A stretch of DNA of 64,000 nt. Origin: Escherichia coli (lineage in GTDB: Bacteria > Pseudomonadota > Gammaproteobacteria > Enterobacterales > Enterobacteriaceae). Below, one piece after another: positions 8,919 to 48,965 of the stretch (the first letter of the stretch is position 1; each line of letters begins with the position of its first letter). The notes under the pieces were generated by a model. That model was not told the origin of the DNA, ran no database searches, and was given only the letters and a program-made list of their open reading frames with translations. The stretch lies in NCBI RefSeq assembly GCF_030013205.1, contig NZ_CP122648.1; one strand, given 5' to 3'. The position numbers and the translations under genes were made by a program.

Positions 8919-10604
8919 ATGTACGATTTTAATCTGGTGTTGCTGCTGCTTCAGCAGATGTGCGTTTTTTTAGTCATTGCGTGGTTAATGAGTAAAACGC
9001 CATTATTCATACCGTTAATGCAGGTCACGGTTCGTCTGCCGCATAAATTTCTCTGCTACATCGTCTTTTCCATCTTCTGCATCATGGGCACCTGGTTTGG
9101 GTTGCACATTGACGATTCTATTGCCAATACCCGTGCGATAGGCGCGGTAATGGGCGGCTTGCTCGGCGGTCCGGTCGTCGGTGGGCTGGTTGGTCTGACC
9201 GGCGGGTTACATCGATATTCGATGGGGGGCATGACCGCGCTAAGTTGCATGATCTCGACCATCGTTGAAGGATTGCTCGGCGGCCTGGTACACAGCATCC
9301 TGATCCGTCGCGGGCGCACTGATAAAGTCTTTAACCCCATTACCGCCGGTGCCGTCACGTTCGTCGCTGAAATGGTGCAAATGTTGATCATCCTGGCGAT
9401 CGCCCGACCTTATGAAGATGCGGTGCGTCTGGTGAGTAATATTGCTGCGCCAATGATGGTTACCAATACCGTCGGCGCGGCGCTGTTTATGCGTATATTG
9501 CTCGATAAACGCGCGATGTTTGAAAAATACACTTCGGCTTTTTCTGCCACTGCGCTAAAAGTGGCTGCCTCGACGGAAGGCATTTTGCGCCAGGGGTTTA
9601 ACGAAGTTAACAGCATGAAAGTGGCACAGGTGCTGTATCAGGAGCTGGATATTGGTGCAGTCGCGATTACCGATCGAGAGAAATTGCTGGCCTTTACCGG
9701 AATTGGTGACGATCACCATTTACCCGGCAAACCGATTTCTTCGACTTACACCTTAAAAGCGATTGAAACCGGTGAAGTGGTCTACGCTGATGGCAACGAA
9801 GTACCTTATCGTTGCTCTTTGCATCCGCAATGCAAACTGGGGTCGACGCTGGTAATTCCGTTGCGTGGTGAAAATCAGCGGGTGATGGGCACCATCAAAT
9901 TGTATGAAGCCAAAAACCGTTTATTCAGTTCAATCAACCGCACGCTGGGCGAGGGGATTGCGCAACTGCTTTCGGCGCAGATCCTCGCCGGGCAATATGA
10001 GCGGCAAAAAGCGATGCTCACCCAGTCAGAGATCAAACTGCTTCACGCCCAGGTGAACCCCCATTTTTTGTTTAATGCGCTTAACACCATTAAAGCGGTG
10101 ATCCGCCGCGACAGCGAACAGGCCAGCCAGCTGGTCCAGTATCTTTCCACTTTTTTCCGCAAAAACTTAAAGCGGCCTTCGGAGTTTGTTACTCTCGCAG
10201 ACGAAATTGAACATGTGAACGCTTATCTGCAAATTGAAAAGGCGCGCTTCCAGTCGCGGTTGCAGGTCAACATTGCTATTCCGCAAGAATTATCCCAGCA
10301 GCAATTGCCCGCGTTTACCCTGCAACCGATAGTGGAAAACGCCATTAAACATGGGACATCACAACTGCTCGATACAGGGCGAGTGGCAATCAGCGCCCGA
10401 CGTGAGGGGCAACATTTGATGCTGGAGATCGAAGACAATGCCGGTTTGTATCAACCGGTAACCAATGCCAGTGGGCTGGGGATGAATCTGGTGGATAAGC
10501 GTTTACGTGAACGGTTTGGCGATGACTATGGGATAAGCGTCGCCTGTGAGCCTGATAGTTACACCCGAATAACGTTACGACTACCATGGAGGGACGAGGC
10601 ATGA
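8919..10604 (+). CDS. btsS: Sensor histidine kinase (LytS-type)
   Basis: ORF 8904..10604; ATG at 8919 gives 561 aa; N-terminal membrane domain, GAF-like region and HATPase C-terminus. Confidence 0.85.
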
Positions 10605-11366: not shown

Positions 11367-11837
11367 ATGCTAAGTAACGATATTCTGCGCAGCGTGCGCT
11401 ACATTTTGAAAGCCAATAATAATGACCTGGTGCGTATTCTGGCGCTGGGTAATGTCGAAGCCACCGCGGAACAGATCGCCGTCTGGCTACGTAAAGAAGA
11501 CGAAGAGGGTTTTCAGCGTTGTCCGGACATTGTTTTGTCTTCCTTCCTCAATGGCCTGATTTATGAAAAACGCGGCAAGGATGAGTCTGCTCCGGCACTG
11601 GAGCCGGAACGTCGCATTAATAACAACATCGTGCTGAAAAAATTACGCATCGCGTTTTCGCTGAAAACCGATGACATTCTGGCGATCCTTACCGAACAGC
11701 AGTTCCGCGTTTCGATGCCGGAAATTACGGCGATGATGCGTGCACCGGATCATAAAAACTTCCGCGAATGCGGCGATCAATTTTTACGTTATTTTCTGCG
11801 TGGACTGGCAGCGCGCCAGCATGTGAAGAAAAGCTAA
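11367..11837 (+). CDS. yehS: Conserved protein of unknown function (DUF1456-like)
   Basis: ORF 11310..11837; ATG at 11367 gives 156 aa (MLSNDILRSVRYILK). Confidence 0.7.
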   Translation: MLSNDILRSVRYILKANNNDLVRILALGNVEATAEQIAVWLRKEDEEGFQRCPDIVLSSFLNGLIYEKRGKDESAPALEPERRINNNIVLKKLRIAFSLKTDDILAILTEQQFRVSMPEITAMMRAPDHKNFRECGDQFLRYFLRGLAARQHVKKS

Positions 11838-11846
11838 GACGGGTAT

Positions 11847-11871
11847 GGCGGCCATGCGAAACATGGCCGCC
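11847..11871. terminator. Perfect palindrome between convergent yehS and yehR (possible bidirectional terminator)
   Basis: ggcggccatg-cgaaa-catggccgcc hairpin; no strong T-run so confidence is low. Confidence 0.3.
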
Positions 11872-11877
11872 GACAGA

Positions 11878-38267: not shown

Positions 38268-38359
38268 TTTATTAACGCGATTGTAAAACTGCGGTTTTTA
38301 CTCGTTTACAACGCGTGCGCTGGACATTACCATCCTCCTCTGCGATTTATCATCGCAAT

Positions 38360-38437
38360 CAAACGACTCGGGGTGCCCTTCTGCGTGAAGGCTGAGAAAT
38401 ACCCGTATCACCTGATCTGGATAATGCCAGCGTAGGG
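38360..38437. repeat. attL: 78-bp copy of thiM TPP-riboswitch sequence (left junction of inserted element)
   Basis: Perfect 78-bp identity to 47250..47327; sequence to its left is native rcnR-thiM intergenic DNA, sequence to its right is element DNA. Confidence 0.75.
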
Positions 38438-38520
38438 GGCCAAAATAGTCTTGAAAATTATGTGGTTGTATCTCTTTTTGACCATAAATCATGCTGTTAA
38501 GGTACAAAAAGGGGTCGTTT

Positions 38521-39828
38521 ATGAGGTCAAGAACTCTCCCATACACATTTCAGCGAAACGGTAATTACTATCTACAAATCCGGCTTTCGGATGGTCGGAT
38601 ATACAAAAAATCACTTTTTACTGACAGTTATCGCGAAGCATCGGCGTTGATGATTGGCCTTACTCCGCACATTCCTTTCGTTAAATCACTCGCTACTCCG
38701 TTGCCGCAATTTAATAAGTTTGTTTCAAACTTGATCGCTTCGTCACGTAACGTAATGATTCCGTTGCCACTCCCTCAGCAATTGAACAATATTTCTAAAG
38801 AAGTTTTGCAGCTTCAACCACCAGCCAAACCGGAAAAGGTGCTAACACTTGCTGATGCGTGGGCTATGTACAAGGAGGAAAGAGGTCGAAATTGGACAAA
38901 ATCGATCTCAATGGCAAATGAGCGTTATATGGAGGTATTGCTTGTTGTCTTGGGAAAAGAAACAGACGTAACGGCAATCACCAAACAAGATATTAAGCGA
39001 GTAATGGAAACTGTCGAAAACTTACCAAAGCGTGTAGTGCAACCGTATAGGTCAATGACTATTCAGCAACTAATCGAATGTGATGATGTGCTGCCAGAGG
39101 ATTTAGTTGGTGCTGAGGCTGTACATAAGCACCTTAAAATCTACAAATCGTTATTCAAAACATTTCTGACTGAAAACAAAGATATTCTATCTAAGTCTCC
39201 GACTGATGGAATAGTAGCGGCACCATCCAAAGCTAGGTTTGGTGCATACAGTGCAGCAGAAATGAAAAAATTTGTAGGATGGGCACTAAAGCAGCCTGAT
39301 GGATGGCAGAAGTGGATCACTTTGTTGTTGGCGTACACAGGAGCCAGAAGAGGTGAGATTGCTAAACTGGAGAAGTCGCAGATCAAATTTGATGAAGATA
39401 GCCAGCGGCACTATCTTCTGATCGCGGAAAGAAGGCTGGGTAAAACTGAGAATGCTACAAGACAGGTAGTGATTCATCCCAAACTGATTGAGTGGGGGTT
39501 TCTGGATTTTGTTAACCGCCAATGGAAAGAGAAAATCTTTTCGGAAGTCTCAGGTCGAAATATGTCAAAGATAGGTAAAGTTCTTTCAGATGTTCGTGAT
39601 CAGCTTGATATTCCTTATCTTGATGATTATGGGCAGCGGCGCTTGGTGCATAGTTTCCGGCATACTATGATTTCTACTTGTTTAGCTGGTTGGGTGAGTA
39701 ATTTGGCGCATCTGCAACAGGTGGTAGGTCATGAGAAAAGCGGTTTAGGGATTACCAGACGCTATTTGCACTCTTTTCCTTTACGTTCAATTTGTTACGT
39801 GATTGATGGTTTGGACTGGTTAAATTGA
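38521..39828 (+). CDS. Tyrosine-type site-specific integrase
   Basis: ORF 38491..39828; RBS AAGGGG before ATG 38521; catalytic-region motifs ARRGEI, HSFRHT, and terminal RRYLHS tyrosine. Confidence 0.85.
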   Translation: MRSRTLPYTFQRNGNYYLQIRLSDGRIYKKSLFTDSYREASALMIGLTPHIPFVKSLATPLPQFNKFVSNLIASSRNVMIPLPLPQQLNNISKEVLQLQPPAKPEKVLTLADAWAMYKEERGRNWTKSISMANERYMEVLLVVLGKETDVTAITKQDIKRVMETVENLPKRVVQPYRSMTIQQLIECDDVLPEDLVGAEAVHKHLKIYKSLFKTFLTENKDILSKSPTDGIVAAPSKARFGAYSAAEMKKFVGWALKQPDGWQKWITLLLAYTGARRGEIAKLEKSQIKFDEDSQRHYLLIAERRLGKTENATRQVVIHPKLIEWGFLDFVNRQWKEKIFSEVSGRNMSKIGKVLSDVRDQLDIPYLDDYGQRRLVHSFRHTMISTCLAGWVSNLAHLQQVVGHEKSGLGITRRYLHSFPLRSICYVIDGLDWLN

Positions 39829-39897: not shown

Positions 39898-39927
39898 GAC
39901 CATATTGTCATCTTGAGGAACAAAAGT

Positions 39928-41499
39928 ATGGTTGCTCGTTCTAACCTTGTAAATTTAGATGCACTGATTAAGCGTGCTGATTTAGGTTTAAAGATCCAAG
40001 ATAACTCTTCATTTGAAACGCTAAACAGTATTCCTGCAAGAGAATTGAAATCAGGAAGTGGAATTGCTGCGCTTCTGAGAAAACCAGATTTCCAGCGTGA
40101 AACAAATCATTGGGGGCCTGAGCAGGTTGTATCGCTTCTCGAATGCTACATCAATGGTGATTTGATACCTTCCGTTATTCTTTGGCGGTCTTCAACCCAT
40201 CTTTTTGTGATCGATGGTGGTCATCGTTTAAGTGCGTTACGTGCTTGGGTTGAAGATGATTATGGCGACGGTCATATATCCCATCAACTTTTTGGGCATG
40301 ATATTCCTCGTGAACAACGCCGCGCTGCAGATAGAACGAGAAAGCTTGTGAAGGAGAGGGTCGGTAGCTGGGAATATTATCAGAAGTTGCTTGCCGATGA
40401 TGCTTCATTGACCGAGGAACAGCAGAGAAGAATCAGCGTATTAACATCTCGTGGAATCTCAGTCCAATGGGTAGTGGGTGATGTAGATAAGGCAGAAACT
40501 TCATTTTTTAACATCAATATGAAGGGAACTCCTCTTGATGCTATCGAAGAGATGCTTCTAAAAAATCGCAAGAAAAGTATTCCGATAGCAACCCGAGCAA
40601 TTATTCGTGCCGGTAGAGGTCATCGCTATTGGTCGGGGTTTGATCAGAGCATTGCCCAGCAACTTGAAGATAAATCTGCAAAGCTGCATCGTTTGCTGTT
40701 CGAACCTGAAGTTGATCGCCCTATTAAAACTCTTGATCTTCCATTAGGCGGTTCTAGGGGGGTCAGGACAGCGATCCAAGTTTTGAAAGATTTCTTACTG
40801 ATCACTGATTGCAACCAGAATGGTGTTTTGAAAAAAATCGAAGCCTACCCTGATGATGCGTCGGGTGCTGATACGTTAAGAATCCTTTCCAAAGCCACAT
40901 CATTAAGCAATAGAATTACAGGCAATGGCGATGGTAGCTTGGGGCTTCATCCAGCGATTTATTTTTATGGTCCGACTGGAATCCACTCAACGCCAATGTT
41001 TCTAGGAACTGTGCTACTGGTGGCAAAACAACTCTCTAACAATAATGGTCAATTCTTTAAAGACTTCACAACAATCAGATCTAGGCTTGAGAGAATAATG
41101 ATCGAATTTAAGGACTTGATCGCAATGATAGTACAAAAACCAGGTAGTAATGTCCGAGTGGCTCGCTACTGTGATTTTTTAAATGCGGTGATCAAATCAC
41201 TCAAGCAGGGAGAGAATATTGATGAGAGTAAGCTTATCGAGCTGGCCGAATTGGAGGGGAGAATACTCTCTGGAGATTTTAAGAGAACATCAGCAAAAAT
41301 CAGCGATGAACAAAAAAGTAAGGTGTTCATTGACGTGGCTCTGCGCAACGCTTTGAAATGTCCGATTTGCCAAGGTTACCTTGATACTGAAAAGTCAGTT
41401 TCTTATGATCATATCGTACGTGTCCGTGAGGGAGGAGATGGTAATTCTGACAATGTACAGTTGACACACCCTTACTGTAACCAGTCAGTGAAGTGTTAA
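39928..41499 (+). CDS. DUF262/DGQHR (ParB-like) domain + C-terminal HNH endonuclease fusion; candidate defence nuclease
   Basis: N-terminus FQRETNHW ... FVIDGGHRLSALRAW (QR/DGQ(Q/H)R-like ParB-fold motifs); C-terminus CPICQGYLDTEKSVSYDHIVRVREGGDGNSDNVQLTHPYCNQ (HNH His-Me finger). 523 aa from ATG 39928. Confidence 0.7.
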   Translation: MVARSNLVNLDALIKRADLGLKIQDNSSFETLNSIPARELKSGSGIAALLRKPDFQRETNHWGPEQVVSLLECYINGDLIPSVILWRSSTHLFVIDGGHRLSALRAWVEDDYGDGHISHQLFGHDIPREQRRAADRTRKLVKERVGSWEYYQKLLADDASLTEEQQRRISVLTSRGISVQWVVGDVDKAETSFFNINMKGTPLDAIEEMLLKNRKKSIPIATRAIIRAGRGHRYWSGFDQSIAQQLEDKSAKLHRLLFEPEVDRPIKTLDLPLGGSRGVRTAIQVLKDFLLITDCNQNGVLKKIEAYPDDASGADTLRILSKATSLSNRITGNGDGSLGLHPAIYFYGPTGIHSTPMFLGTVLLVAKQLSNNNGQFFKDFTTIRSRLERIMIEFKDLIAMIVQKPGSNVRVARYCDFLNAVIKSLKQGENIDESKLIELAELEGRILSGDFKRTSAKISDEQKSKVFIDVALRNALKCPICQGYLDTEKSVSYDHIVRVREGGDGNSDNVQLTHPYCNQSVKC

Positions 41500-41887
41500 A
41501 ATCACGTTTCACTTTTCGTTGTCATTTGTATCGAACGTTTTTGAGAAAGGGCAGGATTGCGAGCGAGTTACCAGCGTAAACAGATAAATACTGTTTTCGT
41601 AAGCCCACTGTCGCCGCTTTCCGCTCTGCAATTTTTGCTTGTCGGGGGGCTAATTGTGGCTTTGCTTGCCATAACATTAAAAGTCAGTAATATACTGAAA
41701 ATTAATACAATACTTTTCATATATCCCATTGAATATTCAGTTCATTGCCAAATAGCAAGCGGAGCACTCTCTCTTTAACGTTGTAGTAACTTAGTTGAAC
41801 AATTTTATAATATAATTTGTCTAAGTTGGTTGATGTATCAAAGCCTTTTTCTGAAGAATGAATTGGCGTGATTACTCACGCCAGATT

Positions 41888-42235
41888 TTAAATTTCAGAA
41901 CATAGGCTAAGCGTATAGACAGCAGTTTGCCCATCATTGTTAGTCGGTCTCATAACGAAAACAGGCTGACTCCCATTATCAATGTATGTGACTGCAACCC
42001 CTCCATCAGGTGTGGCATACATTTTTGCGATGCTTTTTTGACCTATAAAATCAAGTCTCCAAGTCTTACCACCAAGATGTATTGTCATTTTTTTATCTTG
42101 TATATCAAAAGTTGAATCTACAGAAACTTTCTGACTTCCCGAGTCAATATGACCTTCCTGTATTGCTTTACAGGAAAAGGTTGTGGCGTGGCCCATCACT
42201 GGAATTAACAAAGCGGCAAATACTAGTTTTTTCAT
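41888..42235 (-). CDS. Small secreted protein of unknown function (115 aa)
   Basis: RBS GGGAGA; MKKLVFAALLIPVMGHATTFSC signal peptide; no recognisable family. Confidence 0.5.
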   Translation of the reverse strand: MKKLVFAALLIPVMGHATTFSCKAIQEGHIDSGSQKVSVDSTFDIQDKKMTIHLGGKTWRLDFIGQKSIAKMYATPDGGVAVTYIDNGSQPVFVMRPTNNDGQTAVYTLSLCSEI

Positions 42236-42345
42236 TTGTCTCCCTTGATGTGTCAAATGGATGGTGATGCTAATAATACATGATTGATTCAAAATGTCAC
42301 GATTAGTGCGTGGTTAATTGGTGCGTCAAATTGCATCTTTGTGCC

Positions 42346-42810
42346 ATGCGAAAGAATCTGAGATACCTTTTTGGACAACGAGTAAAAGAGTTCCGTATAG
42401 CTATTGGCTTAAGCCAAGAGGCCTTTGCAGATCGGTGTGGTTTTGCTCGTAGTTATATGAGTCGAATTGAGCGTGGTTGCTCTAATGCATCTCTTGATGC
42501 AATTGAGGTTCTGGCTGACGCTTTGCGTATTGAGCCTTGGCAGTTACTAGCTTCTGATTCAAGGAAAACTGATGATCAGGAGGTACTTGTTCCTTATGCT
42601 GCAGATGGGTCGTGTTTTCATCCAGGATTGGCAAGTACTCGCGATGGTTCGTTTAGAGTAGGGGAAAAATCAGCCCAGAAACGTTTCAGTTCGTTCAATG
42701 ACGCTCTCGAATACCTTCGTGGAATGGAAACCGCGAAGTGGCGTAGGCCTAATGCTAGTGGTAATTGGGGAATTGTATCTGCGGTTAAATGGGATCGACT
42801 GAATCAATAA
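42346..42810 (+). CDS. XRE-family HTH regulator with C-terminal extension
   Basis: LRYLFGQRVKEFRIAIGLSQEAFADRCGFARSYMSRIERG HTH; start could also be the GTG at 42310; divergent from secreted-protein gene. Confidence 0.65.
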   Translation: MRKNLRYLFGQRVKEFRIAIGLSQEAFADRCGFARSYMSRIERGCSNASLDAIEVLADALRIEPWQLLASDSRKTDDQEVLVPYAADGSCFHPGLASTRDGSFRVGEKSAQKRFSSFNDALEYLRGMETAKWRRPNASGNWGIVSAVKWDRLNQ

Positions 42811-42976
42811 GATATCAGTAATTTTCGGGCCACTCCACAAGGCAATAAGTGGCTTAGTGGTGATTATCGAAGGGGAATACAAGCGAGCACCTAGGCACCA
42901 TTGCAAGAACCGCTCAACGCTGAGATCAGCAAGCCCCGATTTCTGCCGACCGTCCCTGTCAAATATCAAGGAGGCA

Positions 42977-43516
42977 TTACGCCTCCTCTTCTTCCTTCTT
43001 AATTCGCTGTACCGTCGAAGGAGCAACATTAAAGATCTCGGCGGTTTTACGCACTGACACGCCATCAGAAAGGGCTTTCTTTATACCTTCTCGATCCACT
43101 GCCTTACCTTTACCACGCTTTCTAGGATTGACGGCTTGCGCTTCTCGTTTACGTTCTAACATCAGTTCACGTTCACACGTTGCCACTGCCGACAACATAG
43201 TAAGCATCATTTTTCCCATCGCGCTTGTAATGTCTGCAATGATCCCTTCTTTGTGAAAGCGAACAATTACACCACGATTATTAAGTTGTTCCACTAAGGC
43301 AAGAATGTCTAAGGTGTTACGCCCTAAACGATCAAGAGAGTGGACGTGTAAGGTGTCGCCTTCTCTCAGATAGGCTAAACACGCTTGTAAGCCTGGGCGG
43401 TTAGTGTCTTTACCAGACAGCTTATCTTCAAAGACTTTGTCGAGAGTTAGTCCTGCAAGCTGGCGATCAGTATTTTGATCTACAGTGCTCACACGCTTAT
43501 AGCCGATATTGCTCAT
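42977..43516 (-). CDS. Small serine recombinase (resolvase/invertase family)
   Basis: MSNIGYKRVSTVDQNTDRQ with catalytic Ser; C-terminal HTH; RBS AAGGGGA. Confidence 0.8.
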   Translation of the reverse strand: MSNIGYKRVSTVDQNTDRQLAGLTLDKVFEDKLSGKDTNRPGLQACLAYLREGDTLHVHSLDRLGRNTLDILALVEQLNNRGVIVRFHKEGIIADITSAMGKMMLTMLSAVATCERELMLERKREAQAVNPRKRGKGKAVDREGIKKALSDGVSVRKTAEIFNVAPSTVQRIKKEEEEA

Positions 43517-43565
43517 AAAATCCCCTTGATGTATCGATTTGGCACCACTCCAATGCAAATGAGTG

Positions 43566-43653
43566 TGTTGTATTCATTTGGTCTGTTTCAAGCCTTATGG
43601 ATACGGAATATTACACGATTTAGCTGTATTCATTTGGTATGCCTAATGGATAC
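43566..43653. promoter_or_regulatory. Two res-like palindromic sites upstream of the serine recombinase
   Basis: tgtattcatttggtctgtttcaagccttatggatacgg and tgtattcatttggtatgcctaatggatacgc; each has imperfect inverted half-sites GTATTCAT / ATGGATAC. Confidence 0.4.
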
Positions 43654-43785
43654 GCAGGGGGATAGATTAAATGGTGTTCTGTTTATACAGGTTTATTTGT
43701 TAGATCAACAAGTTGGCATTTCTAAACAGATGTTTGAACGTTGCCAAATGCCTTGACAACACAAGAAAATGGCTTGCTATGAACG

Positions 43786-44100
43786 CATTACACGAAATAA
43801 GGCTATAAAAACAAAATAAATTTTAAAATTTGCACAAAAACGAGAAAACTCGTTCGACAAATAATAGATTGGTTTTTAATCGACAATTTCTGACAATTTC
43901 TGATGGTGCTCTGTAAACCGCATTACACAAGGCTTTGCGAAAGTGATGTAAAAGTGAAGAAAGTTAACATTGCACTTTGAAGCCATTTTTCATTGGATTT
44001 TTTAGTAGGGAATTACACAGGGAATAGAGAGCATTATTCTATGATTTACACAGGGAATATAGGGGATTATGGCACACACATAGAAAGGCATTACACAGAG
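43786..44100. repeat. Iteron-like direct repeats, family A (TTACACAGGGAAT-type, 5 copies)
   Basis: cattacac(g/a) at 43786 and 43921, aattacacagggaat at 44011, tttacacagggaat at 44046, cattacacagag at 44089. Confidence 0.5.
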
Positions 44101-44163
44101 TGAGTGCTATGTGATGATTGGTAGTAACGGTAGGTCACTGTGAGCTACCCCCCACAGAATTCT

Positions 44164-44340
44164 GTTACCCCTATCAAGTCTAACAGGGGTTTATAAAGAA
44201 TAATAAACCGATGATACCCCTATCAATATTGATACCCCTATTAGCTTTGATATGACTACCCCTATCAAAACTGATACCCGATAAGAATAAGTTAATAAGA
44301 ATAATTAAATAATATTCTTTATATCTATATATATGATCTT
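44164..44340. repeat. Iteron cluster, family B (GATACCCCTATCAA x5) plus AT-rich unwinding-like tract: candidate oriV
   Basis: tacccctat at 44166, 44215, 44233, 44257 and tacccgat at 44275 (spacing 18-49 bp), followed by about 60 bp of nearly pure A/T (44281-44340). Confidence 0.55.
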
Positions 44341-45503
44341 TTTGCCTTCCGGCGTTAGCTTCACTCTCTGGCAAGCAGCCTTACTCCGCTATCTTTGGGC
44401 TTCGTGGCTGGCCCGTTCCGCTCACACCGAAAGCAAAGCGTTACTCTTCTTCGTGTAACTATCGTTGGCGGTAACGCCACACGAAGAAATACTATTGCGC
44501 TGTGCGCAGTAAGAGTAATCACCTAACCAATCACCTGATTGCTTACGTGTTAACTCTCTCTAACTCTTAATTACCCTCCTACATTTAATAACTCTATTAT
44601 TCTCTGTAGTTGTGTAATTACTCGAAGAGAGAGCGGCTAAAGCTCAATTACACTCTGCTTTCCTCGTGTAATTTCACTAAGCCTCAATACAATTTCACTT
44701 CCTACATTCTGTAGTCGTGTAATAGTTTTCGGTGGGGAAAAGCCAGAGGCGACACCGAAAGAAAATTCTGATCTTATTAATCTTATCTATCTTAGTTAAT
44801 CTTCTTACTTACTTTATCTACTTTATTATTAATAATAGCTTTATAAGCTCTCTGTGTAGCTCTCTGACGCAAGAAACAGCATTCAGGAAGGGAATCACCT
44901 TAGAAAAGTGTTCTTTGCGTCATAATGTGTTTTATGAAGGATTCAGAGGTGTTTCATAACACAAGGTATAGAGGATATTTTAGTTAATTAAAAATAAGGG
45001 GGCTAAATGCTTCTCTAACAGCATTAAGCAGGGTAGAGAATGGAAATGCATTGCCTACGTATATATAAACTCACTACAAGGCTTTACAGAGCGTTTTATA
45101 AAGTAACTAATCTAAGAACTCTCTGTTTTATATCTATCATCATCTTTCCATCATCTAACAAATACAAAATAAGCCCCTTAAATAAGCCTCTGGCGAGCTA
45201 AACAGCCATTACATAAGGGAATGTATTTCTTTTATCAAAACTTCGTTAGAACGCGTTTTAGAGCGTTTTATACAATAAGGAAGAATAGGACCGTCCGCAA
45301 GAGCACGAATTGCTAAGAAAGAATGTAAACGCATGAAAAATATCAGATTTTTTATGAAAATATATTGACAAATGTTTCTTTATATGTAATAATAGGTATT
45401 AGAGAGACAGAAAAACATTCTTCTCTAAATAATCAAAATCAATGCACTTTGAAGCCGTCAGGCTTGCAAGGTGTTTTTCTTTTAACTGAATAAGGAGTTT
45501 TTT

Positions 45504-45692
45504 ATGAAATGGTTTACACCGGAACACGTCGTAGAGGCATTTAAAAAAGGTGAGCTAACACGACATCAAGTAGTAATGAATCGTAATATGGCAAGGAGTC
45601 GAGGTTATCCAGAGCGTGAAAAATGTTTCGATGCAGCACTAAAAATTATTGATAAATTAAGAAAAAATGAAAAAGGATCTGAAACAGAGTAA
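45504..45692 (+). CDS. Hypothetical small protein (62 aa)
   Basis: Strong RBS AAGGAG 7 nt upstream of ATG; basic small protein, no family recognised. Confidence 0.45.
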   Translation: MKWFTPEHVVEAFKKGELTRHQVVMNRNMARSRGYPEREKCFDAALKIIDKLRKNEKGSETE

Positions 45693-45711
45693 AGAAGAGA
45701 AGGAGAAAACT

Positions 45712-45882
45712 ATGAGCGAAACTACAGAAAAGAAAAGACAACCACGCACTTGCTTTCATATTCCTGATGAAGTATTTCAGGTGTTGTTTAAAGAAGCCAG
45801 AAGTAAACGTATCACTGTTACAGATTACATTCTTGATATGTTGAAAAGAGAGGCTGAAACACTCTCAAATAAAAGCAAGTGA
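45712..45882 (+). CDS. Ribbon-helix-helix (CopG/Arc-like) DNA-binding protein
   Basis: RBS AGGAG; PRTCFHIPDEVFQVLFKEARSKRITVTDYILDMLKRE fits beta-alpha-alpha RHH pattern. Confidence 0.5.
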   Translation: MSETTEKKRQPRTCFHIPDEVFQVLFKEARSKRITVTDYILDMLKREAETLSNKSK

Positions 45883-45936
45883 TTTTTATCACCATAGTAG
45901 CGCCGTAGAGCGTGATTACATCAAGGAGCTTTTTTA

Positions 45937-46599
45937 ATGATTAAACATACAAAACCTTTCTTAGGAATAGATTATGACTTACTAGCAATCACTTCCCTAG
46001 TGATTAACGGCAAAACAAAAGAAGTAAAACTACATCATAAGATCATTTATTCTTATTTGTTAAGTTTATCTGGCACATATCAAAAGGTAACACCATCTTT
46101 GAAAGGTATTGGTGAGCGGTTAGGAGTAGGTACAGATCAGACGGTACGCCGTCATATCAAAGATCTTGTTTCTTTTGGATGGTTGAAGATTGAGGAAAGG
46201 GCAGGTAGCACAAATGCTTATATTGTCCTTCCTTATGAACAAGAAGCCCAGACACAACAAGAAGCTACCGTTAAAGCTGTTCAGGAACAGCTTCCCCCTA
46301 CGGAAGATAATAAAGAGTTTTCTTTTGATGTTCTTGATGATTGGGATGCGCCTTTACCTTGGGAAATGGAAGAAACGCCATCTGATGAAAAGGTAGCTAA
46401 TGATAATGAGGAGGATGTGTTAGAGAATTTTGCCTCTCTTATCATCCAGGAGAAACACACAAGAACAGGAGGGGCATCATTTATAGAATTTGCAACATCG
46501 TTAGCCTGTAAGCACAGGATAAAGCTACCAAATGGTATTGAGGCATATTTTGCTAAGAAACATCCCAAAGTATATGAAGACTTTGATATTCCATTTTAA
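45937..46599 (+). CDS. Winged-helix protein, candidate replication initiator
   Basis: RBS AAGGAG; wHTH-like SLKGIGERLGVGTDQTVRRHIKDLVSFGWLKIEE; acidic C-terminal half; sits next to iteron region. Confidence 0.5.
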   Translation: MIKHTKPFLGIDYDLLAITSLVINGKTKEVKLHHKIIYSYLLSLSGTYQKVTPSLKGIGERLGVGTDQTVRRHIKDLVSFGWLKIEERAGSTNAYIVLPYEQEAQTQQEATVKAVQEQLPPTEDNKEFSFDVLDDWDAPLPWEMEETPSDEKVANDNEEDVLENFASLIIQEKHTRTGGASFIEFATSLACKHRIKLPNGIEAYFAKKHPKVYEDFDIPF

Positions 46600-46794
46600 T
46601 AAGGAGGGTTATGATTCAATATTTAGTAAAAAATAAAGTAGAATTCATCTATTCCACTCTCTAAAAATCTATCTGTGTAATATAAAATGAAAACATTATG
46701 GTATTAGCTATGTATTGGTTATTGTTCTTTCTGGCCTTAGAAACATATGCAAGTAAGTCTGGAAAACGAAAGTAATATATTGATGATTTGTTTG

Positions 46795-47052
46795 TTATAA
46801 CTTCGTGGTGTCAAGTCCAGCAGTTTTGAGTCGCTCGGTAAGATTTCTCATTTTGCTGAACTCTGTACCAAAGCTGGCTTTAAGTCCTACACCTTCGCAA
46901 AACTCTTTTGCCGTGACGTTTTTCAGATGGTCAACATATTTGGTCATCTGGAGGTGCATTTCCATCGTTTGGCTATTTCGTGATGCGCTGCTAATGGCTT
47001 GCTTAATGTTCTCGTAGATCTGGGTTCTGTCATTGTTTATCCCACCTATCAA
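46795..47052 (-). CDS. Hypothetical small protein (85 aa) at element right end
   Basis: Minus-strand ORF adjacent to attR; function unknown (could be an excision/regulatory factor). Confidence 0.35.
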   Translation of the reverse strand: MIGGINNDRTQIYENIKQAISSASRNSQTMEMHLQMTKYVDHLKNVTAKEFCEGVGLKASFGTEFSKMRNLTERLKTAGLDTTKL

Positions 47053-47245
47053 ATTTAGAAAAATAATATTAATTAGCTAATTAATATAATCAATGGTTTT
47101 CACCATCTGAATGATAGCCGTTAATTGTTTCTTTTTCATTCCTTCTATGGGGTACAAAATGGGGTACACAGAGAAGAAGCAATTAATGGAGGCGAGCTTG
47201 CATCTGCAAGCCACTTCCCCTAAGCTGGCACAAAATATAGAGATT

Positions 47246-47379
47246 CAACCAAACGACTCGGGGTGCCCTTCTGCGTGAAGGCTGAGAAATACCCGTATCA
47301 CCTGATCTGGATAATGCCAGCGTAGGGAAGTCACGGACCACCAGGTCATTGCTTCTTCACGTTATGGCAGGAGCAAACT
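47246..47379 (+). promoter_or_regulatory. TPP (thi-box) riboswitch controlling thiMD
   Basis: Contains the canonical thiM aptamer sequence CAAACGACTCGGGGTGCCCTTCTGCGTGAAGGCTGAGAAATACCCGTATCACCTGATCTGGATAATGCCAGCGTAGGGAAGTC and expression platform up to the SD (ggcaggag). Confidence 0.85.
47250..47327. repeat. attR: 78-bp direct repeat (native riboswitch copy adjoining thiM)
   Basis: Identical to 38360..38437; downstream sequence continues as native thiM leader. Confidence 0.75.
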
Positions 47380-48168
47380 ATGCAAGTCGACCTGCTGAGT
47401 TCCGCGCAATCTGCGCACGCGTTACACCTTTTTCACCAACATTCCCCTCTTGTGCATTGCATGACCAATGATGTGGTGCAAACTTTTACTGCCAATACCT
47501 TACTGGCGCTCGGTGCATCGCCAGCGATGGTTATCGAAACCGAAGAAGCCAGTCAGTTTGCGGCTATCGCCAGTGCGTTGCTGATTAACGTTGGCACACT
47601 GACGCAGCCACGCGCACAGGCGATGCGTGCCGCCGTTGAACAGGCAAAACGCTCTCAAACACCCTGGACGCTTGATCCAGTAGCGGTTGGTGCACTCGAC
47701 TATCGCCGCCGTTTTTGTCTGGAACTTCTGTCTCATAAGCCAACCGCCATACGTGGTAATGCTTCGGAAATCATGGCATTAGCTGGCATTGCTAATGGCG
47801 GACGGGGAGTGGATACCACTGACGCCGCAGCTAATGCGATACCCGCTGCACAAACACTGGCACGGGAAACTGGCGCAATCGTCGTGGTCACAGGCGAGGT
47901 GGATTATGTTACCGATGGCCATTGCACCGTTGGCATTCACGGTGGCGATCCGCTAATGACCAAAGTGGTAGGAACTGGCTGTGCATTATCGGCGGTTGTC
48001 GCTGCCTGTTGTGCGCTACCAGGCGATATGCTGGAAAATGTCGCATCTGCCTGTCACTGGATGAAACAAGCCGGAGAACGCGCAGTCGCCAGTAGCGAGG
48101 GGCCAGGCAGTTTTGTTCCACATTTCCTTGATGCGCTCTGGCAATTGACGCAGGAGGTGCAAGCGTGA
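47380..48168 (+). CDS. thiM: Hydroxyethylthiazole kinase
   Basis: 262 aa; immediately downstream of TPP riboswitch. Confidence 0.9.
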
Positions 48169-48965
48169 AACGAATTAACGCTCTGACGATTGCCGGTACT
48201 GATCCGAGTGGTGGTGCGGGGATTCAGGCCGATCTTAAAACCTTCTCGGCACTTGGCGCTTATGGTTGCTCAGTTATTACTGCACTGGTGGCGCAAAATA
48301 CCCGTGGTGTACAGTCGGTGTATCGCATTGAGCCTGATTTTGTCGCCGCCCAGCTCGATTCGGTGTTCAGCGATGTGCGAATCGACACCACTAAAATCGG
48401 TATGTTGGCGGAAACCGATATTGTTGAAGCGGTGGCAGAACGGTTGCAACGTTATCAGATCCAAAACGTGGTACTCGACACCGTTATGCTGGCAAAAAGC
48501 GGCGACCCGCTGCTTTCACCTTCGGCGGTTGCTACGCTGCGCAGTCGATTATTGCCACAGGTTTCATTAATAACGCCAAACTTGCCCGAAGCTGCTGCCT
48601 TGCTCGACGCGCCACACGCGCGCACCGAACAGGAAATGCTGGAACAAGGGCGATCGCTGTTGGCGATGGGCTGTGGCGCAGTGCTAATGAAAGGTGGTCA
48701 TCTGGATGATGAGCAAAGCCCTGACTGGCTGTTTACTCGTGAGGGGGAACAACGATTTACTGCACCGCGCATTATGACCCAAAACACCCACGGCACTGGT
48801 TGTACGCTCTCTGCGGCGTTGGCTGCACTACGCCCGCGCCATACAAACTGGGCTGACACCGTACAGGAGGCAAAAAGCTGGCTTTCATCGGCGTTAGCCC
48901 AGGCCGACACGCTGGAAGTTGGTCACGGTATTGGTCCGGTTCACCACTTCCACGCCTGGTGGTGA
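48165..48965 (+). CDS. thiD: Hydroxymethylpyrimidine/phosphomethylpyrimidine kinase
   Basis: 266 aa; overlaps thiM stop (operon). Confidence 0.9.

What the first reader, a model, noticed from the sequence alone, without database searches (positions are those of the whole stretch)
38300..38530. Riboswitch split by the insertion: aptamer copy now precedes the integrase, and thiMD is separated from its native promoter
The left junction keeps the native thiM promoter region and the aptamer up to CGTAGGG, then runs into element DNA with the integrase ATG about 85 nt downstream on the same strand. Transcripts from the thiM promoter would therefore carry most of a TPP aptamer ahead of int, which may place int under TPP-responsive control or be incidental. 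The thiM-proximal copy retains the full aptamer and expression platform, but its upstream DNA is element-derived, so thiMD transcription must start in the element or rely on read-through.
Basis: inference. Interest (0 to 1): 0.7.

Follow-up and report, generated by a model that had tools for sequence, protein, structure and literature searches.

The report
Mobile element that targets thiM riboswitch
An 8.9-kb mobile element has inserted into the thiamine-sensing RNA switch in front of thiM, bringing its own promoter and its own copy of the sensor so that thiMD stays switched on and regulated, while the displaced host copy left in front of the integrase gene is most likely a by-product rather than a regulator.

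Summary
An 8,890-bp integrative element lies between rcnR and thiM. It is flanked by an 82-nt direct repeat (78 nt exact) that is the TPP aptamer from its P1 5' strand to GCGTAGGG. Both copies pass Rfam's threshold. The integrase gene starts 83 nt after the left copy.

Related loci refine the picture. Integrases 64-84% identical sit about 85 nt downstream of a TPP aptamer copy in over 15 genera of Enterobacterales. Relatives at about 30% identity sit behind rnpB. Empty-site strains of Pantoea ananatis and Citrobacter koseri show that the integrase-side copy is the displaced host aptamer. The thiM-side aptamer is supplied by the element. Crossover lies in the last 13-23 nt (P4/P5).

The element also supplies a promoter (TTGCAT-N17-TAAGCT, 47198-47226). 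Published Cappable-seq of O157:H7 EDL933 places a thiM start site 148 nt upstream of the ATG, equivalent to window 47232. EDL933 keeps only this right arm and has lost the native promoter.

TPP control of int is not supported. The left copies lack P1, half fall below the Rfam threshold, some have decayed, and folding shows no coupling. This is a new variant of target-restoring integration (as with prfC and dusA), here applied to a riboswitch.

The parts
38305..38333 (+). Native thiM promoter (-35 TTTACA 38305-38310, 17-nt spacer, -10 TACCAT 38328-38333). The inferred start site is 38340. It now points at the displaced aptamer copy and at int.
   Evidence: Promoter scan gives 9/12. The published MG1655 thiM TSS lies 150 nt from the start codon, which maps to window 38340, 7 nt after TACCAT.
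38356..38437 (+). Left (integrase-side) repeat. This is the displaced host TPP aptamer from the P1 5' strand to GCGTAGGG. It lacks the P1 3' strand and the expression platform.
   Evidence: Repeat found. Rfam scores 61.9 bits with 2 of 5 P1 pairs non-canonical. In C. koseri and P. ananatis this copy is 100% the native aptamer of empty-site strains.
38423..38437 (+). Inferred crossover region, left copy: AATGCCAGCGTAG(GG). It covers the 3' side of the L5 loop, the P5 and P4 3' strands.
   Evidence: Host and element aptamers differ everywhere to the left of CCTGATCTGG... in P. ananatis LMG 2665 and E. coli TB06052. In E. coli strain 'ExPEC' (L045) the identity between the two junctions is only AATGCCAGCGTAG. 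All three integrase subfamilies diverge from the host right after GCGTAG or GCGTAGGG.
38438..38520 (+). Element left arm and int leader. It holds a degenerate copy of the family's GGCCGAAATTCGGCC palindrome, an inverted repeat/hairpin (about 38467-38517) that pairs CUCUUUUUGAC with GGUACAAAAAGGGG across the int Shine-Dalgarno, and one arm-type motif AGGTACA at 38500.
   Evidence: Fold. Alignment fold of 10 relatives (alignment A1). Motif positions.
38521..39828 (+). Tyrosine integrase, 435 aa.
   Evidence: Pfam PF00589 over residues 260-419. PHROG 1 integrase, E 1.6e-26. PGAP annotation in ATCC 8739. The ARRGE, HSFRH and RRYLH motifs are read from the translation.
39913..46599 (.). Element body. 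It carries a DUF262/GmrSD_N + HNH protein (39913-41499), a small secreted-type protein (41888-42292, -), an XRE-type HTH (42310-42810), a serine invertase (42977-43558, -), an ORF-poor stretch with iteron-like repeats (about 44010-44280), two small ORFs, and a Rep-like HTH_36 protein (45937-46599).
46795..47052 (-). HTH_73 protein gene, conserved at the right end of type-A elements. It is retained in the O157:H7 and BL21 remnants.
   Evidence: Pfam PF24718, E 8e-27. phrog_30666. Annotations.
47149..47168 (+). Tandem arm-type motifs GGGGTACA-AAAT-GGGGTACA (putative integrase arm sites in the right arm).
   Evidence: The same motif occurs as 2-3 copies in relatives' right arms and over the int start. 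It is also present at both ends of the rnpB-targeting relative L030. That these are binding sites is inference.
47198..47226 (+). Element-borne thiM promoter: -35 TTGCAT (47198-47203), 17-nt spacer, -10 TAAGCT (47221-47226). The inferred start site is 47232.
   Evidence: The EDL933 Cappable-seq TSS 148 nt from the thiM ATG maps to the A at the equivalent of 47232, and the sequence differs from the window by 1 nt. The layout TTGNNN-17-TANNNT lies 28-29 nt before GACUC in every type-A right arm, in one unrelated right arm and in native Pantoea and Franconibacter sites, against 3.2% of random windows.
47246..47327 (+). Right (thiM-side) repeat. By the family rule this is the element-supplied part of the aptamer. 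Here its sequence is identical to the E. coli host copy apart from one base.
   Evidence: and by analogy.
47249..47379 (+). Complete working thiM TPP riboswitch. The aptamer (47249-47345) scores 71.2 bits. The host-derived P1 3' strand (GAAGUC from 47328) and the expression platform run up to the thiM ATG.
   Evidence: Rfam. Forcing the aptamer fold lowers SD/AUG accessibility from 0.465 to 0.315.
47380..48965 (+). thiM (47380-48168) and thiD (48165-48965).

Best explanation
This is a site-specific integrative element, 8.9 kb here, with interchangeable cargo in relatives. Its tyrosine integrase uses the DNA that encodes the P4/P5 helix of the thiM TPP riboswitch aptamer as its attachment site. 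The crossover lies within ...AATGCCAGCGTAG(GG).

A riboswitch acts in cis on the gene downstream, so the element must replace everything upstream of the crossover. Its right arm carries a thiM-type promoter, a short leader and nearly a whole TPP aptamer (P1 5' strand through P5). After integration this cassette is joined to the host's P1 3' strand, expression platform and thiMD. The operon therefore stays expressed and TPP-regulated.

The host's own promoter and aptamer, cut just before the P1 3' strand, are pushed to the other junction and end up 83 nt upstream of int. Host-promoter transcripts probably read into int. The truncated aptamer there has no switching function. Translation of int is instead held down by a conserved hairpin and arm-site region over its ribosome-binding site.

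Shown: the repeat anatomy; host versus element origin of the two copies; family-wide conservation; loss of the native promoter in O157:H7 and BL21; and a mapped thiM start site inside element DNA in EDL933.

Inferred: the exact overlap bases; the arm sites; read-through into int; and that the window strain uses the same start site.
For: Family conservation: all Enterobacterales relatives of the integrase (64-84% identity, over 15 genera) have an aptamer copy ending at GCGTAG about 85 nt before int. Most have a second, complete copy in front of thiM 3-11 kb away.

Origin of the copies:
- Eight P. ananatis empty-site strains match the integrase-side copy of LMG 2665 exactly. The thiM-side copy there has a different, compensated P3 and J region and still scores 75.6 bits.
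- Nine C. koseri empty-site strains match the integrase-side copy of NCTC10786 exactly.
- E. coli TB06052 has a foreign aptamer in front of thiM.
- L045 reduces the shared core to 13 nt.

Function of the copies: thiM-side copies score 71-78 bits in 13 of 13 loci. Integrase-side copies score 55-64 bits, or fall below threshold in 12 of 25 loci.

Promoter: the layout is conserved. The EDL933 TSS lies at -148. The native promoter is absent in O157:H7 and BL21(DE3)-type genomes, which keep the right arm. The right arm is in 558 of 5,426 E. coli genomes but int in only 125.

Mobility: the identical element is found in 37 genomes from unrelated sources, and empty sites in 4,727. Tandem, attP-like junctions exist.
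Against: No excised circle, attP product or recombination assay was seen. The attP-like junctions are all tandem arrays.

In the window itself the two copies are identical, so the host/element assignment rests on relatives. The BL21 remnant is mosaic (element-type P1 5' strand, E. coli-type P3), which needs later homologous exchange between the repeats to be explained.

The tool's promoter scan does not call the element promoter (6/12). It also fails on the native P. ananatis site.

The TSS evidence is from EDL933, not from the window strain or a strain with an intact element. The per-condition rows were not retrievable, so the strength of the -148 site relative to -137 and -201 is unknown.

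Type-B right arms in other genera have no clear match to the simple promoter pattern.
Confidence: 0.82

Rival explanations
1. One reading: the aptamer copy ahead of int makes integrase expression respond to TPP, linking excision or integration to thiamine status.
For: An aptamer copy sits at a fixed distance of about 85 nt before int throughout the family. No promoter or terminator is predicted between it and int in the window. Subfamily-A copies still pass the Rfam threshold at 57-64 bits. In the excised form int would again lie behind a thiM-type promoter plus aptamer (inference).
Against: The P1 3' strand is absent, and P1 is what couples ligand binding to the platform. In subfamilies B and C part of P4 is lost too. 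12 of 25 copies fall below the gathering score. Several carry disabling changes: L004 in the L5 loop, L042 in P1/P2, and L043 with a deletion plus duplication. That pattern argues against selection.

The copy is simply whatever the host had. The AGUC in the window's left arm that could mimic a P1 3' strand is not present in relatives. The int RBS hairpin is conserved and independent of the aptamer. Accessibility is unchanged when the aptamer is forced, 0.259 versus 0.280, while the thiM control drops from 0.465 to 0.315.
Confidence: 0.07
2. thiMD behind the element is expressed mainly by read-through: from the + strand genes of the element (45504-46599), or from the distant native promoter, rather than from a dedicated promoter in the right arm.
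For: No terminator-like site is predicted in 46700-47420. The element promoter is a poor consensus match at 6/12. EDL933 also has a start site at -201, further inside the arm.
Against: Cappable-seq captures primary 5' ends, and it puts one 6 nt after TAAGCT. The native promoter is deleted in O157:H7 and BL21. The remnants differ in what lies upstream but share the promoter block. The layout is conserved in sequence-unrelated right arms.
Confidence: 0.06
3. The crossover is at the left edge of the repeat, as in tRNA- and rnpB-type integration. The aptamer next to int would then be the element's own copy, kept by selection, and the one before thiM would be the host's.
For: Distant relatives behind rnpB have the classical arrangement of an intact RNA gene followed by int. 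The BL21 remnant has an element-type P1 5' strand but an E. coli-type P3.
Against: The integrase-side copies equal the native aptamers of empty-site strains in two species and two integrase subfamilies. The thiM-side copies carry foreign sequence up to CCTGATCTGG. Near-identical right arms carry the same P3 in Enterobacter and Citrobacter hosts. L045 shares only the right-most 13 nt.
Confidence: 0.03

Closest known systems
Integrative elements that target the 5' end of a gene and supply a new promoter and 5' part: the SXT/R391 ICE in prfC, and dusA-specific elements such as IMEVchUSA3
   Same: Integration occurs at the upstream end of the target. The element's far arm supplies a new promoter and a replacement for the displaced 5' part, so the target stays expressed (PMC8409611, read; PMC5812530). 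Tandem arrays and RecA-mediated hybrids are also described for SXT, as seen here.
   Different: What is replaced here is a cis-regulatory RNA (promoter, leader and aptamer), not a coding N-terminus. The replacement must fold together with the host's P1 3' strand into a working ligand sensor. The integrases are not shown to be related to those of SXT or the dusA elements (not tested).
Integration into tRNA, tmRNA and other structured-RNA genes with restoration of the 3' end (P4-like and many genomic islands; ffs in phage phiEf11)
   Same: The target is DNA that encodes a conserved RNA stem-loop. A long identity block restores the RNA. int lies next to the attachment site. Distant relatives of this integrase do exactly this at rnpB, with a 117-nt repeat of the rnpB 3' end. 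Non-coding RNA targets are listed in PMC12540744.
   Different: This case is the mirror image. The restored copy is at the junction far from int, the identity block lies upstream of the crossover, and a promoter has to be supplied. Riboswitches are not among the attB classes listed in the papers read.
KplE1 (CPS-53) intS type of integrase regulation
   Same: The int gene abuts attL, and the integrase arm-type sites overlap its own expression signals. This suggests negative autoregulation rather than control from upstream (title and abstract of PMC2951348 as listed; the mechanism itself is from my own knowledge).
   Different: No binding or promoter data exist for this element. The overlap of GGTACA motifs with the int Shine-Dalgarno and ATG is read from sequence only.
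E. coli K-12 thiM TPP riboswitch (Rfam RF00059)
   Same: The thiM-side copy is a complete member: all helices, a platform that hides the Shine-Dalgarno, and thiMD downstream.
   Different: Its promoter, leader and, by the family rule, aptamer up to P5 are of element origin. The integrase-side copy is a 3'-truncated scar that RefSeq still annotates as a riboswitch.

Membership tests
TPP riboswitch (RF00059): thiM-side copy 47249-47345 | Covariance-model score at or above the curated gathering score | tested here: met
   71.2 bits against 54.3.
TPP riboswitch (RF00059): thiM-side copy 47249-47345 | P1 helix closing the three-way junction, followed by an expression platform and a thiamine gene | tested here: met
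   4 of 5 P1 pairs are canonical, as in native E. coli. Forcing the aptamer lowers SD/AUG accessibility from 0.465 to 0.315. thiM ATG is at 47380.
TPP riboswitch (RF00059): integrase-side copy 38359-38454 | Covariance-model score at or above the gathering score | tested here: met
   61.9 bits. Equivalent copies in relatives score 54.9-63.5, or fall below threshold in 12 of 25 loci.
TPP riboswitch (RF00059): integrase-side copy 38359-38454 | P1 helix and a platform that converts ligand binding into a change in expression of the downstream gene | tested here: not met
   The 3' partner is element DNA and 2 of 5 pairs are non-canonical. No P1 partner is conserved in relatives. Accessibility of the int RBS is unchanged by the aptamer fold.
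TPP riboswitch (either copy) | Binding of thiamine pyrophosphate | not testable with these tools
   Needs in-line probing or ITC.
Tyrosine-recombinase integrative element | Integrase with the tyrosine recombinase catalytic domain | tested here: met
   PF00589, E 4e-6, residues 260-419. PHROG 1. The ARRGE, HSFRH and RRYLH motifs are present in the translation.
Tyrosine-recombinase integrative element | Element bounded by direct repeats of the target, with uninterrupted target sites in other strains | tested here: met
   The reconstructed attB is 100% identical to an empty site. The same holds in P. ananatis and C. koseri.
Tyrosine-recombinase integrative element | Excision to a circle carrying attP, and integrase-dependent recombination | not tested
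   Only tandem-array junctions with the attP arrangement were found. No free circle or experiment is available.
Target-restoring integration at the 5' end (prfC/dusA type) | The element supplies a promoter that drives the target after integration | tested here: met
   The EDL933 TSS 148 nt from the thiM ATG lies inside element DNA, 6 nt after TAAGCT, and the native promoter is deleted there. For the window strain this is by near-identity (1 nt different).
Target-restoring integration at the 5' end (prfC/dusA type) | The element supplies a functional replacement for the displaced 5' part of the target | tested here: met
   Foreign but structurally complete aptamers lie in front of thiM in P. 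ananatis LMG 2665 (75.6 bits) and E. coli TB06052. An exception without an aptamer is L045.
Phage or phage satellite (PICI, P4-like) | Phage structural or packaging genes, or hijacking genes, or relatives among sequenced phages | tested here: not met
   tblastn of the integrase finds nothing in 50,697 phage records. PHROG hits are limited to integrase, invertase, regulators and a Rep-like protein. The element is not filed under this family.

The most novel reading that the evidence does not exclude
A clade of integrases has specialised on DNA that encodes conserved RNA folds: rnpB in marine Gammaproteobacteria and the TPP aptamer P4/P5 helix in Enterobacterales. Its members carry a portable promoter-plus-aptamer cassette. 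As a result, in about a tenth of E. coli genomes, including O157:H7 and BL21, the model thiM riboswitch is driven by a foreign promoter and is partly a foreign aptamer. Examples are a fully paired P1 in BL21 and a different P3 and J region in TB06052 and P. ananatis LMG 2665. This would measurably shift the TPP set-point or expression level of thiMD relative to K-12. A stronger and less likely version is that the truncated host aptamer left before int still binds TPP and modulates integrase expression.
Probability: 0.3. Interest if true: 0.65.

Novelty: new variant of a known kind. Interest (0 to 1): 0.55.

Why it matters
1. In the papers I could search, I found no description of a riboswitch serving as the attachment site of a mobile element. 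This adds a new class of attB. It also shows how an element can preserve a cis-acting RNA regulator, by carrying a surrogate promoter, leader and aptamer that must fold together with the host's remaining strand.

2. The core (AATGCCAGCGTAG within CCTGATCTGGATAATGCCAGCGTAG) was the same in all the enterobacterial thiM aptamers examined here. This fits the spread across more than 15 genera and suggests a broad-host-range landing site for engineering.

3. Two widely used E. coli lineages, O157:H7 and BL21(DE3), have lost the native thiM promoter and depend on the element's right arm. Results on the thiM riboswitch from K-12 may not transfer unchanged.

4. Annotation pipelines label the integrase-side scar as a TPP riboswitch. 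That invites the false inference that integrases are thiamine-regulated.

Tried and rejected
- The consensus promoter scan found no + strand promoter in 46700-47420. It also finds none in the uninterrupted P. ananatis thiM upstream region, so the negative result was set aside.
- For BL21(DE3) TSS data, PMC5435950 has no supplement held and does not mention thiM.
- Per-condition rows for EDL933 gene 15540 were cut from the stored supplement.
- Exact-protein look-ups for empty sites in Atlantibacter hermannii and Lelliottia returned only the occupied genomes.
- Hit H70 was fetched as a possible divergent aptamer. It proved to be an IS3-ridden element, though its right junction later helped narrow the core.
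- A first guess at the EDL933 coordinates missed the locus.
- Six literature searches for riboswitch, thiM or TPP as an integration site found nothing relevant. One candidate paper had no thiM in its text. Mageeney et al. 2020 does not mention riboswitches.
- The AGUC at 38446-38449 was considered as a substitute P1 3' strand and rejected, because it is absent from relatives.
- The GGCCGAAATTCGGCC palindrome was considered as an intrinsic terminator and rejected, because there is no U tract and it is degenerate in the window.
- A left-edge crossover was considered and rejected.
- A phage or satellite identity was considered but not supported.
Full report
**1. The observation**

The window carries rcnA (-), rcnR (+), then the region in question, then an island, then thiM and thiD.

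- A direct repeat of 82 nt with one mismatch (78 nt exact) lies at 38356-38437 and 47246-47327, with start-to-start spacing of 8,890 bp.
- Both copies match Rfam's TPP riboswitch model above its gathering score of 54.3 bits. The left copy scores 61.9 and the right copy 71.2.
- The repeat runs from just before the P1 5' strand (CAAACGACUC) to GCGUAGGG. It therefore covers P1-5', P2, P3, P4 and P5, but not the P1 3' strand.
- After the left copy the sequence is foreign (GGCCAAAATAGTC...). A 435-aa tyrosine integrase starts at 38521.
- After the right copy comes the native GAAGUCACGG..., the expression platform and thiM (ATG 47380).
- The only + strand promoter-like site near the left copy is TTTACA-17-TACCAT at 38305-38333.
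- Joining the two flanks reconstructs a site that is 100% identical to the uninterrupted rcnR-thiM region of another E. coli. That uninterrupted site occurs in 4,727 of 5,426 complete E. coli genomes.

**2. What the element is**

Between the repeats lie the following:
- the integrase;
- a DUF262/GmrSD_N protein with a C-terminal HNH motif;
- a small secreted-type protein;
- an XRE-type regulator;
- a serine invertase;
- an ORF-poor stretch with iteron-like repeats;
- two small ORFs and a Rep-like HTH protein;
- at the far end on the minus strand, an HTH_73 protein.

The identical element is present in 37 complete E. coli genomes from pigs, people, dogs, chickens and soil, and in ATCC 8739. The best matches are porcine ETEC/O139:H1 strains. 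No sequenced phage encodes a related integrase, so I do not file it as a phage or satellite.

**3. A family that always sits in this riboswitch**

A scan of one genome per species for relatives of the integrase gave 41 loci.

- Every relative of 64-84% identity has a TPP aptamer copy ending ...GCCAGCGTAG about 85 nt upstream of the integrase start. The genera include Lelliottia, Erwinia, Enterobacter, Citrobacter, Silvania, Atlantibacter, Cedecea, Rahnella, Pluralibacter, Klebsiella, Winslowiella, Pantoea, Mangrovibacter, Pseudenterobacter, Franconibacter and Kosakonia.
- Many of them have a second, complete copy in front of thiM, 3-11 kb downstream.
- The sequence just after GCGTAG defines three integrase subfamilies: GG+GGCCGAAATTCGGCC, TCCTGGCGATTATCC and CCATGGCAATTATTC.
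- Some junctions have one element's right arm directly followed by the aptamer and the next element's integrase. These are tandem arrays with the attP arrangement.
- Relatives of about 30% identity in marine Gammaproteobacteria sit on the same strand, usually about 70-180 nt (in two loci about 640-880 nt) downstream of a complete RNase P RNA gene.
- One of these, in Methylophaga, has a 117-nt repeat of the rnpB 3' end 7.6 kb away, and GGTACA-type repeats at both ends.

The clade therefore targets genes for structured RNAs.

**4. Which copy belongs to whom, and where the crossover is**

In the window the two copies are identical, so relatives have to decide.

- **Pantoea ananatis.** Eight strains with an uninterrupted site share one native promoter-aptamer-platform sequence. 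In the occupied strain LMG 2665, the integrase-side copy is 100% that native sequence up to GCGTAG. The thiM-side copy has a different P1 5' strand, a different but fully compensated P3 (CCCUG...CAGGG instead of CCUUC...GAAGG) and a different junction. It becomes identical only from CCTGATCTGGATAATGCCAGCGTAG onward, after which the native platform follows. That chimeric aptamer scores 75.6 bits.
- **Citrobacter koseri.** Here the integrase is of the same subfamily as the window's. Nine empty-site strains carry a species-specific aptamer that is exactly the integrase-side copy of strain NCTC10786.
- **E. coli TB06052.** A second element has entered the riboswitch of an O157-type remnant. Its thiM-side aptamer is non-E. 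coli at P1-5', P3 and the junction, followed by the native E. coli platform.
- **E. coli 'ExPEC' (L045).** The right arm carries no aptamer at all, and the identity between the two junctions is only AATGCCAGCGTAG.

I conclude that the crossover lies in the last 13-23 nt of the repeat, in the P5/P4 3' strands (window 38423-38437 and 47313-47327). The copy in front of int is the displaced host aptamer. The aptamer in front of thiM is supplied by the element.

The identity block is thus a target-restoring segment. It is the mirror image of the 3'-end restoration seen with tRNA genes and with this clade's own rnpB-targeting relatives.

Mosaics such as the BL21 remnant (element-type AUGACUC, E. coli-type P3), and the perfect identity in the window, are most simply explained by homologous exchange between the two long repeats. 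This is inference.

**5. The thiM side: a surrogate promoter, with transcript evidence**

Upstream of the right copy lies TTGCAT (47198-47203), a 17-nt spacer and TAAGCT (47221-47226).

- The tool's scan does not call it, at 6/12. It also finds nothing in the native, uninterrupted P. ananatis region.
- The layout TTGNNN-17-TANNNT ending 28-29 nt before GACUC is present in every right arm of this type. It is also present in the sequence-unrelated right arm of TB06052 (TTGTAT-17-TAACCT) and in the native sites of Pantoea (TTGCTT-17-TATGCT) and Franconibacter. Only 3.2% of random windows match.
- In O157:H7 and in BL21(DE3)-type genomes only the right arm of such an element remains, and the native promoter is gone. 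In O157:H7 homology to the window stops at the last codons of rcnR. In BL21 an IS1-bounded deletion removed rcnR and beyond, and the left 165 nt of the reconstructed site match nowhere in that genome.
- The right arm is present in 558 of 5,426 E. coli genomes, but the integrase 5' region in only 125. The arm next to thiM therefore survives when the rest decays.
- Published Cappable-seq data for O157:H7 EDL933 list the distance from start codon to TSS for thiM as 150 in MG1655. For EHEC gene 15540 they list 137, 148 and 201 (PMC10469882, Table S5 sheet 3).
- EDL933_RS15540 is thiM, preceded by the HTH_73 gene and the remnant.
- The 148 site is an A lying 6 nt after TAAGCT, equivalent to window 47232. 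EDL933 and the window differ by one base from -45 to the ATG.
- The MG1655 value maps to window 38340, 7 nt after TACCAT.

Transcription of thiM therefore starts inside element DNA, with almost the native leader length. It applies to the window strain by near-identity, not by direct measurement.

**6. The int side: TPP control is unlikely**

The host promoter, active in MG1655, now faces the truncated aptamer and int. No promoter or terminator is predicted in between, so read-through into int is plausible. Several results argue against a thiamine response:

- The P1 3' strand is missing everywhere. In two subfamilies one P4 pair is lost as well.
- thiM-side copies score 71.2-77.7 bits in 13 of 13 loci. 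Integrase-side copies score 54.9-63.5 in 13 loci and fall below threshold in 12.
- Some integrase-side copies carry disabling changes in L5, in P1/P2, or indels. This is what is expected of a sequence under no selection.
- The copy is simply the host's own.
- The AGUC at 38446-38449 that might replace the P1 3' strand is peculiar to this element.
- The 85-nt leader has a conserved inverted repeat that pairs CUCUUUUUGUC with GGUACAAAAAGGG over the int Shine-Dalgarno, and a further helix over the AUG. It overlaps GGTACA motifs that recur as tandem copies in the right arm. These are probably integrase arm sites, which would suggest autoregulation (inference).
- Forcing the aptamer helices leaves the accessibility of the int Shine-Dalgarno/AUG unchanged in the window (0.259 against 0.280), and nearly so in five of the six relatives tested. 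The same treatment lowers it for thiM from 0.465 to 0.315.

The aptamer stands before int because the crossover is at its 3' end, not because int needs it. I put TPP-responsive control at about 7%.

**7. Comparison with known systems**

In working principle the nearest are elements that enter the 5' end of a gene and bring a new promoter and 5' part: SXT in prfC and IMEVchUSA3 in dusA (PMC8409611; PMC5812530). Also close are elements that enter structured-RNA genes and restore them (tRNA, tmRNA, ffs; PMC12540744).

The differences here are these:
- The restored object is a cis-acting riboswitch.
- The surrogate aptamer must pair with the host's remaining P1 strand.
- The attachment core is the pyrophosphate-sensor helix, whose sequence was the same in all the enterobacterial thiM aptamers examined here.

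I found no paper that describes a riboswitch as an attachment site. The library is incomplete, so this is absence of evidence only.

**8. Verdict**

The finding is a new variant of a known kind, target-restoring site-specific integration. It has practical consequences for annotation, because RefSeq labels the scar as a riboswitch. It also matters for anyone who assumes that thiM regulation in BL21 or O157:H7 is the same as in K-12.

Noticed in passing
L027, L029, L030, L032, L033, L036, L037, L038 (e.g. L030:9536-9906 rnpB, int from 10001, repeat 9791-9907 / 17359-17475): Relatives of the integrase at about 30% identity in marine Gammaproteobacteria sit just downstream of a complete RNase P RNA gene. 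One has a 117-nt repeat of the rnpB 3' end 7.6 kb away, and TGGTACACAAACTGGTACACA at both ends. rnpB therefore appears to be the attachment site of the sister group.
   Followed up: partly
L076 (E. coli TB06052) 11692-23520: This is a tandem history in one E. coli genome. An O157-type remnant, with the native promoter gone, has served as the target for a second, different element carrying an AAA ATPase cargo. The aptamer now in front of thiM is foreign at P1-5', P3 and the junction.
   Followed up: yes
L045 (E. coli strain 'ExPEC', mussels) 14583-15070: The right arm of an IS-ridden relative carries no aptamer and joins the host at AATGCCAGCGTAG. thiM keeps its P1 3' strand and platform but has no ligand sensor, so it is presumably constitutive. 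No riboswitch is annotated there.
   Followed up: partly
L003 (BL21(DE3) derivative) 11995-12091: In BL21-type genomes the P1 5' strand of the thiM riboswitch is element-type UGACU rather than K-12's CGACU. This gives five canonical P1 pairs instead of four. The native promoter and rcnR-rcnA-rcnB are absent, next to an IS1.
   Followed up: partly
window 39913-41499 (+): The cargo gene encodes a 528-aa protein with a DUF262/GmrSD_N domain and a C-terminal HNH-like motif (PGAP: GmrSD restriction endonuclease domain). It gives only a weak PADLOC hit. Relatives carry other cargo at the same position (AAA ATPase, AIPR, HATPase). The element family thus looks like a small carrier of defence-type genes.
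   Followed up: partly
window 42977-45500: A serine invertase gene is followed by about 2 kb without convincing ORFs. The stretch contains iteron-like direct repeats (GAATTACACAGGGAATAGAG twice at 44010-44070; TGATACCCCTATCAA about four times at 44163-44279). It lies upstream of a Rep-like HTH protein (45937-46599). This may be a replication origin or an invertible segment.
   Followed up: no
window 19080-19153 (-) and 63178-63263 (-): Rfam finds an OrzO-P antitoxin sRNA (88.8 bits) and CyaR (100.7 bits) elsewhere in the window.
   Followed up: no
L001 2922-3017; hits H96-H120: RefSeq/PGAP annotates the integrase-side aptamer scar as 'TPP riboswitch' directly upstream of the integrase in every genome checked. 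This is an annotation pitfall that could be mistaken for thiamine-regulated integrases.
   Followed up: yes
L010, L012, L019, L023, L024, L042, L043 (thiM-side junctions): A second type of right arm (...CCCGCTGGCATTATCC...GATTAACGGGACGTTAATC...) goes with the other two integrase subfamilies. It resembles the native Klebsiella/E. coli-type thiM upstream region, including a leader hairpin. It has no clear match to the simple -35/-10 pattern, so its promoter is unassigned.
   Followed up: partly
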